Positions 28,758 to 29,037 of a stretch of 29,037 nucleotides of DNA are shown in pieces. Where the stretch lies: the UHGV virus genome UHGV-0149439; one strand, 5' to 3'. The first letter of the stretch is position 1. Every line of letters begins with the position of its first letter. The notes beneath the pieces were generated by a model. The model saw only the letters and a program-made list of their open reading frames with translations. It had not been told where the DNA came from and did no database searches. The position numbers and the translations under genes are program-made. The stretch comes from a virus.

Positions 28758-29037
28758 GCGATAAAAATACATTACGCGTCTGGACCTTCTTCCGGCAGGG
28801 GATTCGTATCCAGGGGGCGCATGAATTTACGCCGCCGTCTCTGGCTGTTGTTAAAACAGATCTGCGTACCGGCGCCCAGGACGCTCCCACTCCGGTGGAT
28901 GACGGTATGGAGGCGCTGACCTGCCAGGTCAAATTCTATGGCATCGATGCTGACCTGCCAGGTCAAATTCTATGGCATCGATGCTGACATGCTTGCCAGC
29001 TTCGGTTTTGTCAGTGGCAGCCGTTCCCGGTTTACGG
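28754..29037 (+). pseudogene. Tail tube gene (P2 FII-like) frameshifted by a 34-bp tandem duplication; continues past the window edge
   Basis: The frame reads ...EALTCQVKFYGIDAD, then shifts and stops at 28987. Removing one repeat copy restores ...GIDADMLASFGFVSGSRSRFT, which stays open to the window end. Confidence 0.7.
28915..28988. repeat. Exact 34-bp tandem duplication bounded by GCTGAC microhomology
   Basis: GCTGACCTGCCAGGTCAAATTCTATGGCATCGAT occurs at 28915-28948 and identically at 28949-28982, followed by GCTGAC at 28983-28988. Confidence 0.97.

What the first reader, a model, noticed from the sequence alone, without database searches (positions are those of the whole stretch)
28915..28988. 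Exact 34-bp tandem duplication frameshifts the tail tube gene
Seen: GCTGACCTGCCAGGTCAAATTCTATGGCATCGAT is present twice in perfect tandem (28915-28948, 28949-28982) and is followed by a third GCTGAC. 34 is not a multiple of 3, so the tube ORF runs into TGA at 28985-28987 after ...GIDADLPGQILWHRC. Deleting one copy restores ...KFYGIDADMLASFGFVSGSRSRFT, which stays open to the window end and parallels P2 FII. Inference: a recent slippage event between 6-bp microhomologies has inactivated tail assembly, making a freshly crippled prophage. Alternatively it is an assembly artefact or a reversible on/off duplication. It also creates the paired spurious MTWQVS minus-strand ORFs.
Basis: seen in the sequence. 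Interest (0 to 1): 0.6.

Follow-up and report, generated by a model that had tools for sequence, protein, structure and literature searches.

The report
Real 34-bp duplication splits prophage tube gene
A perfect 34-base tandem duplication really does break the tail-tube gene of a Citrobacter koseri prophage; it is an inherited mutation seen in dozens of independent assemblies and not an assembly error, but it is an ordinary kind of prophage-disabling lesion.

Summary
GCTGACCTGCCAGGTCAAATTCTATGGCATCGAT lies twice in exact tandem (28915-28948, 28949-28982), followed by a third GCTGAC. The tube ORF (28754-28987) stops after 77 aa. Relatives carry one copy. Deleting one copy gives a 168-aa protein that exists letter-for-letter on 246 public contigs as the C. 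koseri "phage major tail tube protein" (Pfam Phage_tube; homologous to the R2 pyocin tube).

It is not an artefact. The exact 77-aa truncated product is on 46 contigs, mostly SPAdes contigs of about 17.6 kb, plus a MAG. A Logan k=31 contig breaks as a duplication predicts. The product occurs in both of two prophages of the closed chromosome CP017665.1, which are identical over about 16 kb.

One-copy prophages with 0, 1 and 4 SNPs over 7.4 kb exist, and they carry the same GCTGAC...GCTGAC flanks (9/10 over 10 nt). The event is therefore evolutionarily very young and fits slipped-strand duplication. All other late genes keep full length.

The functional consequence is inferred, not shown. The tube is split into 77-aa and 118-aa overlapping pieces, so tail assembly is most likely lost unless a copy is deleted again. 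A reversible switch or a working split tube cannot be excluded, but nothing supports either. Interest is low.

The parts
27288..28757 (+). Tail sheath gene (489 aa), intact. Its stop overlaps the tube start codon.
   Evidence: ORF list. Pfam Phage_sheath_1 and Phage_sheath_1C on the identical product. The exact protein is indexed in 67 blocks of the collection.
28754..28987 (+). 5' fragment of the tail tube gene: native residues 1-67, then 10 out-of-frame residues (LPGQILWHRC) and TGA.
   Evidence: Pfam Phage_tube profile positions 2-66 of 165. The exact 77-aa product is on 46 contigs, named phage major tail tube protein [Citrobacter koseri].
28915..28948 (+). Copy 1 of the 34-bp unit. It contains the palindrome TGACCTG-C-CAGGTCA at 28917-28931.
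28949..28982 (+). Copy 2 of the 34-bp unit. This is the inserted copy relative to all one-copy relatives. The novel junction is T|GCTGACC at 28948/28949.
   Evidence: The alignment with E. coli SC476 and phage Chris1 shows a 34-nt gap in both relatives. One-copy C. koseri alleles.
28983..28992 (+). Downstream flanking direct repeat GCTGACATGC, 9/10 identical to the first 10 nt of the unit. It holds the TGA (28985-28987) that ends the shifted frame.
   Evidence: family D2.
28938..29037 (+). Start of the +1-frame ORF MASM+LTCQVKFYGIDADMLASF..., which carries native tube residues 55-168 (118 aa in full). It runs off the window end. A weak AGG lies 9 nt upstream of the ATG.
   Evidence: frame 1 translation on L003. 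Gene callers call it at 10185-10541 of L004-L010, with Pfam Phage_tube. Profile positions 52-159. The exact product is on 44 contigs.

Best explanation
This is a genuine, heritable 34-bp tandem duplication in the tail tube gene of a Citrobacter koseri prophage. The phage has a lambda-like head module and a P2/Mu-like contractile tail, and is related to Citrobacter phage Chris1.

The ancestral one-copy gene carries two short direct repeats 34 nt apart (GCTGACCTGC ... GCTGACATGC). The inferred mechanism is that the nascent strand slipped back from the second repeat to the first during replication and copied the interval again.

Because 34 is not a multiple of 3, the gene is split. A 77-aa N-terminal piece holds native residues 1-67, and an overlapping 118-aa +1-frame piece holds native residues 55-168. 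Neither has the full tube fold. The prophage most likely makes heads, sheath and baseplate but no polymerisable tube, so it yields no infectious particles unless one copy is precisely deleted again.

The allele is evolutionarily very young but not private to this sample. It is fixed in a sampled C. koseri lineage and sits in both of that lineage's two prophages. Those prophages share an identical late-gene module of about 16 kb, which implies spread by recombination or gene conversion between them. Shown: the DNA facts, the ancestral state and the distribution. Inferred: the slippage mechanism, the loss of tail function and the gene conversion.
For: The duplication is exact and non-random. Relatives at 83-88% DNA identity have one copy and a 168-aa tube. 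Removing one copy gives a 168-aa ORF that is open to the normal stop. That protein exists exactly on 246 contigs and in 562 blocks as the C. koseri major tail tube protein. It scores 68.4 bits against Pfam PF04985 (cut-off 22.4), and the two fragments cover profile positions 2-66 and 52-159. It aligns over its full length to the R2 pyocin tube structures 3J9Q/5W5E and 6PYT at E about 1e-14.

The truncated 77-aa product is on 46 contigs and in 49 blocks. These include the closed chromosome CP017665.1 at two loci, the MAG GCA_032512805.1, SPAdes assemblies ERZ1745136/143/147/150 and ERZ835702, and ENA contig OCJI01000174.1, which continues past the window end. Logan k=31 contig L025 ends exactly 30 nt into the unit, as a 34+6-nt tandem repeat forces in a k=31 graph.

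L004 and L005, the two prophages of CP017665.1, are identical over locus positions 1-16159 and diverge in the tail fibre. One-copy prophages encoding the identical sheath protein differ from the duplicated one by 0 (L024), 1 (L023) and 4 (L022) substitutions in 7470 nt. One-copy alleles L012, L013, L019 and L020 carry the same unit flanked by GCTGAC on both sides, while other alleles have GCTTAC or ACTGAC...ACGGAT and lack the repeat. All other late genes have the same lengths as in one-copy prophages.
Against: No read-level, expression or particle data were available, so loss of function is inferred. The +1-frame ORF has its own ATG and a weak AGG, so both halves might be made, and fragment complementation is not excluded. 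The AlphaFold model was poor (mean pLDDT 54.5), so the position of the break in the fold (strand 52-62, helix 66-72) is only indicative. Identity of the two copies in CP017665.1 could be partly exaggerated by cross-mapping during polishing, and the sequencing method of that assembly is unknown to me. Presence in both prophages needs a second event (gene conversion) or recurrence.
Confidence: 0.8

Rival explanations
1. Assembly or sequencing artefact: the genome really has one copy, and the second copy was created by the assembler near a contig end.
For: The window ends only 49 nt after the repeat, in mid-ORF, so a contig end nearby is possible. The source of the window could not be identified.
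Against: A de Bruijn assembler cannot create the novel junction k-mers without reads that contain them. The same junction lies in the interior of 46 contigs from several projects and assemblers (SPAdes at 260-900x coverage, a closed chromosome, a MAG), thousands of bases from contig ends. A Logan k=31 contig breaks exactly as a true duplication predicts.
Confidence: 0.01
2. Reversible on/off switch of the cap3A type: the duplication is the OFF state of tail production, and precise RecA-independent deletion of one copy restores ON at a biologically useful rate. One-copy and two-copy forms would then interconvert within a lineage.
For: One-copy and two-copy prophages differ by 0-1 SNPs in 7.4 kb. 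The allele is in both prophages of one genome. Exact tandem repeats are intrinsically prone to precise deletion (established knowledge). Precedent exists: tandem duplications in pneumococcal cap3A switch the capsule off and revert (Waite et al. 2001, as cited in PMC11163986).
Against: No sample showed both states. Every carrier contig has exactly two copies, never three. No independent duplication junction was found in other lineages, either in 185,579 species-representative genomes or in IMG/VR. The 0-SNP pattern is explained equally well by one recent forward event. A tube defect does not stop lysis after induction, so there is no obvious host benefit.
Confidence: 0.07
3. The split gene is still functional: the 77-aa and 118-aa products, which overlap by native residues 55-67, assemble into a working tube, or a +1 recoding event makes a full-length tube with an 11-residue insertion.
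For: Both ORFs are called by gene finders, and the second has an ATG with an AGG 9 nt upstream. The allele has persisted on several downstream haplotypes and in two prophages.
Against: All relatives encode a single ORF of 168 aa, so the two-ORF layout is not conserved. By inspection there is no known +1 slippery site (such as CUU UGA C) and no homopolymer run in 28920-28984. The break falls between a predicted core strand and the only long helix (low confidence). The event is too young for its persistence to imply selection.
Confidence: 0.05

Closest known systems
Slipped-strand (microhomology-mediated) tandem duplication causing a frameshift, i.e. the classical Streisinger/Albertini type of spontaneous mutation
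   Same: The copies are exact and head-to-tail with no extra bases at the junction. The ancestral allele has short direct repeats at both ends of the duplicated interval. The result is a frameshift and a premature stop.
   Different: Nothing essential differs. The mechanism itself was not observed.
P2 FII / R2-pyocin-type contractile tail tube protein (Pfam PF04985)
   Same: The one-copy form matches the family over its full length and aligns with the solved R2 pyocin tube. The gene lies between the sheath gene and the tail assembly chaperone and tape-measure genes.
   Different: In the window the gene is split into two overlapping ORFs. The phage is not P2-like overall: the head and packaging module is lambda-like (GpA terminase, Phage_portal_2, ClpP-capsid fusion) and the early region is lambdoid.
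Cryptic or defective prophages crippled by a single lesion in a structural gene
   Same: The late operon is otherwise complete, with one frame-disrupting lesion in an essential virion gene.
   Different: Here the ancestral intact allele is available at 0-4 SNPs, so the lesion can be dated as very recent, and the same lesion is present in two co-resident prophages.
Phase variation by reversible intragenic tandem duplication (pneumococcal cap3A; Waite et al. 2001, as cited in PMC11163986)
   Same: An intragenic tandem duplication of tens of bases gives an OFF state that could revert by precise deletion.
   Different: No reversion, no mixed populations and no multiple independent duplications were seen here. 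The resemblance is formal only.

Membership tests
Phage_tube (PF04985; P2 FII-type tail tube) | Significant full-length match to the family profile | tested here: met
   The one-copy reconstruction P0018 scores 68.4 bits (cut-off 22.4), residues 5-161 against profile 2-159 of 165. The window's 77-aa fragment scores 24.6 bits against profile 2-66.
Phage_tube (PF04985; P2 FII-type tail tube) | Homology to a structurally solved contractile-tail tube | tested here: met
   R2 pyocin tube 3J9Q/5W5E at E=1.3e-14 and PA0623 6PYT at E=1.5e-14, aligned over residues 6-163.
Phage_tube (PF04985; P2 FII-type tail tube) | Gene position directly after the sheath gene and before the tail assembly chaperone and tape measure | tested here: met
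   The order is sheath (489 aa), tube, Phage_TAC_7 (99 aa), a 615-aa protein, then GpU, X, GpD, W, J, I and fibre in L004-L020.
Phage_tube (PF04985; P2 FII-type tail tube) | Single uninterrupted ORF encoding the whole fold | tested here: not met
   In the window and in 46 other contigs the gene is split into 77-aa and 118-aa ORFs. It is a disrupted member of the family.
Slipped-strand tandem duplication | Exact head-to-tail copies with no filler at the junction | tested here: met
   Two 100% identical 34-nt units with start-to-start spacing of 34.
Slipped-strand tandem duplication | The ancestral single-copy allele exists and carries short direct repeats at both ends of the interval | tested here: met
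   L012, L013, L019, L020 and L022-L024 have one unit flanked by GCTGAC...GCTGAC. More distant alleles lack the repeat.
Slipped-strand tandem duplication | Arises by replication slippage in vivo | not testable with these tools
   This needs mutation-accumulation or reporter experiments.
Reversible duplication switch (cap3A type) | Both states found within one clonal population, with precise reversion | tested here: inconclusive
   One-copy and two-copy forms at 0-1 SNPs occur in different samples. No reads were available to look for mixtures within a sample.
Reversible duplication switch (cap3A type) | Recurrent, independent duplications at the locus | tested here: not met
   A degenerate junction pattern found nothing in the species-representative genomes or in IMG/VR. 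No contig has three copies. Only this one junction was searched for.
Programmed ribosomal frameshift | The two-frame architecture is conserved among relatives | tested here: not met
   Relatives encode a single 168-aa ORF.
Programmed ribosomal frameshift | A recognisable slippery site in the overlap | tested here: not met
   Inspection of 28920-28987 shows no +1 site of the CUU-UGA-C type and no X-XXY-YYZ heptamer in a position that would restore the frame. This was by eye only.

The most novel reading that the evidence does not exclude
The 34-bp duplication would be the OFF state of a heritable, reversible switch on virion tail production. Precise deletion of one copy during induced replication would restore tube synthesis in a minority of cells, and tube supplied in trans would then let particles carrying the two-copy genome spread. 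That would explain why the allele persists on several haplotypes and in both co-resident prophages, alongside 0-SNP one-copy forms.
Probability: 0.07. Interest if true: 0.5.

Novelty: new member of a known kind. Interest (0 to 1): 0.2.

Why it matters
Mainly as a clean, datable example. A prophage was disabled by a single slippage event, the exact ancestral allele is still circulating at 0-4 SNPs, and the lesion was copied into a second prophage of the same genome. This shows how quickly co-resident prophages homogenise their late modules.

In practice, the two short 'major tail tube protein' entries annotated in these C. koseri genomes are halves of one broken gene. Prophage 'intactness' calls for this lineage should take that into account. 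It opens no long-standing question, and a specialist would not be surprised by it.

Tried and rejected
1. Exact searches for the junction and for the unit in IMG/VR and in the species-representative genomes found nothing, so the window's own source record was not identified. The single metagenome scan found OCJI01000174.1.

2. A degenerate junction pattern, meant to detect independent duplications in other alleles, found nothing in genome contigs or viral contigs.

3. A literature search for CP017665 gave 0 papers. Searches on C. koseri prophages found only general genomics papers with no mention of this lesion.

4. AlphaFold2 on a 20-sequence, 85-95% identical alignment gave a poor model (mean pLDDT 54.5). 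I used only its secondary-structure outline and ran no fold search.

5. I asked whether the window's end (49 nt past the repeat) marks a graph break caused by a one-copy/two-copy mixture. A bubble would end the upstream contig near 28954, or imply an unusual k of about 89-90, so this is unsupported and left open.

6. Programmed +1 frameshift, stop-codon readthrough and transcriptional slippage were rejected by inspection: there is no slippery site or homopolymer run, and UGA readthrough stays in the wrong frame.

7. I could not tell which of the two CP017665.1 prophages corresponds to the window. The window differs from both by one base at 18780.

Full report
**Observation**

The window reads ...GAGGC GCTGACCTGCCAGGTCAAATTCTATGGCATCGAT GCTGACCTGCCAGGTCAAATTCTATGGCATCGAT GCTGACATGCTT....
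- Tandem Repeats Finder reports 28915-28992, period 34, 2.3 copies, score 149.
- The repeat finder gives two 100% identical 34-nt units at 28915-28948 and 28949-28982. The flanking repeat is really 9 of 10 nt: GCTGACCTGC at both unit starts and GCTGACATGC at 28983-28992.
- The unit occurs twice in the window, against 0.00 expected in shuffles, even with 3 mismatches allowed.
- The + strand ORF that starts at 28754, overlapping the stop of the 489-aa sheath gene, ends at TGA 28985-28987 after 77 aa.
- The two minus-strand MTWQVS ORFs are present and are by-products of the repeat.

**What the gene is**

The nearest annotated records are an E. coli SC476 prophage (88% DNA identity) and Citrobacter phage Chris1 (83%). 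Both annotate a 168-aa 'phage major tail tube protein / tail tube protein FII' here, and both show a clean 34-nt gap opposite one copy.

Contig OCJI01000174.1 carries the same duplication and continues beyond the window. Deleting one copy there gives a 168-aa ORF that stays open to the normal stop and is 161/168 identical to the SC476 tube.
- That reconstructed protein exists letter-for-letter in public data on 246 contigs and in 562 index blocks, named phage major tail tube protein [Citrobacter koseri].
- It scores 68.4 bits on Pfam PF04985 Phage_tube (cut-off 22.4).
- It aligns over residues 6-163 with the solved R2 pyocin tube (3J9Q/5W5E; 6PYT) at E about 1e-14.
- The gene order around it is GpA terminase, portal, ClpP-capsid fusion, decoration and head-tail genes, sheath, tube, tail chaperone, a 615-aa protein, then GpU, X, D, W, J, I and fibre.

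This is a myovirus with a lambda-like head module and a P2/Mu-like tail. The early region is lambdoid, with integrase, CI/Cro-like repressors, a replication gene, methylases, RusA and Q.

**Not an artefact**

The exact 77-aa truncated product is on 46 contigs (49 index blocks), and the 118-aa +1-frame product is on 44. Carriers include:
- the closed 4.75-Mb chromosome CP017665.1;
- the MAG GCA_032512805.1;
- SPAdes assemblies from at least two ENA series (ERZ1745136/143/147/150 at 260-900x coverage, and ERZ835702).

In all of these the repeat lies thousands of bases from contig ends. A de Bruijn assembler cannot produce the novel junction (T|GCTGACC) without reads that contain it. Independently, Logan k=31 contig L025 stops exactly 30 nt (k-1) into the unit, which is the break a 34+6-nt tandem repeat forces in a k=31 graph. 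The window's last 10,284 nt are identical to three of these contigs and differ from the others by one base. Its first 12,832 nt are identical to ERZ835702 NODE_40.

**Two prophages, one lesion**

In CP017665.1 the truncated product occurs at two loci.
- One is followed by a cloacin/pyocin-S-type bacteriocin gene.
- The other is followed by a glycosyltransferase and HicAB.

The two loci are base-for-base identical from 10 kb upstream of the tube start to about 6.1 kb downstream, and they diverge in the tail fibre gene. This explains why 44 of the 49 blocks hold contigs of 10-20 kb: the contigs of about 17.6 kb are the collapsed shared module. They run through the duplication unbroken, which argues that both copies carry it.

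Other C. koseri genomes have prophages at both kinds of locus with an intact tube. The simplest history, which is inferred, is one duplication event followed by recombination or gene conversion between the co-resident prophages. A base at window 18780 that is private to CP017665.1 is also shared by both of its copies. That fits concerted evolution, although cross-mapping during polishing could mimic it.

**Age and mechanism**

Contigs that encode the identical sheath protein but a one-copy tube differ from the duplicated allele, after removing one unit, as follows over 7,470 nt:
- L024 (Logan SRR29658294): 0 substitutions.
- L023 (MEGAHIT k141, ERZ27312841): 1 substitution.
- L022 (GCA_016501985.1): 4 substitutions. 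This strain carries the same prophage at the same chromosomal site, at 99.77% identity over the left arm.

These alleles and several 98%-identical ones (L012, L013, L019, L020) have the unit flanked by GCTGAC on both sides. Other C. koseri alleles read GCTTAC, and the E. coli and Chris1 alleles read ACTGAC...ACGGAT, so they lack the repeat. The ancestral state is therefore documented. It contains the direct repeats that slipped-strand mispairing needs, and the event is evolutionarily very recent. A palindrome (TGACCTG-C-CAGGTCA, 28917-28931) sits inside the unit and may help, but that is speculation.

Carriers are not all identical. They differ at 36 columns, mostly in the baseplate and fibre region, in patterns shared with other C. 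koseri prophages. The allele has therefore survived some recombination, although collapsed two-copy contigs may blur this.

**Consequence (inferred)**

The frameshift leaves two pieces:
- a 77-aa product with native residues 1-67 plus 10 junk residues;
- an overlapping +1-frame ORF (ATG 28938, with a weak AGG 9 nt upstream) that encodes MASM plus native residues 55-168.

The Pfam matches of the two pieces cover profile positions 2-66 and 52-159. A low-confidence AlphaFold model (pLDDT 54.5) places the duplicated residues 55-67 on a strand (52-62) and at the start of the main helix (66-72).

Neither piece has the whole fold, and the tube protein is essential for a contractile tail (established knowledge). 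The prophages are therefore most likely tail-defective. All other late genes keep the lengths seen in one-copy prophages, so this is the only visible lesion.

I saw no +1 slippery site or homopolymer run that could recode the gene, and readthrough of the TGA stays out of frame. Relatives do not conserve a two-ORF layout.

**Alternatives**

A reversible switch like pneumococcal cap3A (Waite et al. 2001, as cited in PMC11163986) is formally possible, because exact tandem repeats delete precisely and 0-SNP one-copy forms exist. Against it:
- no sample showed both states;
- no contig has three copies;
- no independent junction was found in 185,579 species-representative genomes or in IMG/VR.

A functional split tube is not excluded, but nothing supports it.

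**Verdict**

The finding is real and correctly interpreted. It is an ordinary kind of mutation: a slipped-strand tandem duplication that pseudogenises a prophage structural gene. The modest points of interest are the availability of the exact ancestor and the presence of the same lesion in two co-resident prophages.

Noticed in passing
window 7125-7188 (inside ORF 6816-7673, +): There are about 4.3 tandem copies of a 15-bp unit (TCTGACGCGTCAAAA consensus; TRF score 79), and several copies have a TGACGC/GCGTCA-like palindromic core. They lie in frame inside the 285-aa gene whose product carries HTH_36 and Phg_2220_C domains. They look like origin iterons embedded in the replication initiator gene, as in lambda O, or else a repeated SD(A/T)SK peptide linker.
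   Followed up: partly
L004 and L005 (CP017665.1 3396912-3417145 and 556009-576242): The closed C. koseri chromosome has two prophages whose late modules are 100% identical over about 16.2 kb and diverge only from the tail fibre onward. One is followed by a cloacin/pyocin-S-type bacteriocin gene, the other by a glycosyltransferase and HicAB. Most short-read assemblies collapse this module into one contig of about 17.6 kb.
   Followed up: partly
window 18780 (= position 27 of L004-L010): Both prophage copies in CP017665.1 (and L008) have T, whereas the window, L006, L007, L009, L010 and most one-copy relatives have C. A private substitution shared by both copies suggests gene conversion between the prophages, or cross-mapping during assembly polishing.
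   Followed up: no
window 29037 (end) and window 1: The window stops in mid-ORF, 49 nt after the repeat. It starts just outside the integrase end of the prophage, next to a DinI-like gene. Its source record was not found. The exact 77-aa product is recorded on no contig of 20-50 kb, so the window is probably a slice of a longer record or comes from an assembly not in these collections.
   Followed up: partly
L025 (Logan SRR3726349_180), locus end at 4657: This k=31 contig ends exactly 30 nt into the 34-bp unit. It is a useful signature: short tandem duplications longer than k-1 minus the flank break unitig assemblies at a predictable base, and that can be used to detect them.
   Followed up: yes
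L004-L010, alignment columns 14050-16831: Carriers of the duplication differ from one another at clustered sites in the GpD, baseplate J/I and fibre genes. The variant bases match alleles seen in other C. koseri prophages (for example L007 resembles L016). This looks like recombination tracts downstream of the lesion.
   Followed up: partly
P0017 (Logan contig, 167 aa): This tube variant replaces residues about 22-40 with out-of-frame sequence (GRMNLRRRLWLLLKQICVPA) and then returns to frame. It probably reflects paired indel errors in a low-quality assembly and not biology.
   Followed up: no
window 7670-8551 and 8544-10478 (+): The early region carries two adjacent DNA methyltransferase genes: a Dam-like one (293 aa) and a large C5 DNA_methylase-domain protein (644 aa). 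They are followed by RusA, an ANT/pRha-domain protein, DUF968 and an antiterminator Q.
   Followed up: no
L026 7522-7956 versus window 4877-5569 (-): The CI-like repressor (HTH_3 + Peptidase_S24) is called as 144 aa in ERZ835702 but as 230 aa in GCA_016501985.1. The window DNA is 100% identical to the former and contains the full 230-aa ORF, so the difference is one of gene calling and not a mutation.
   Followed up: yes
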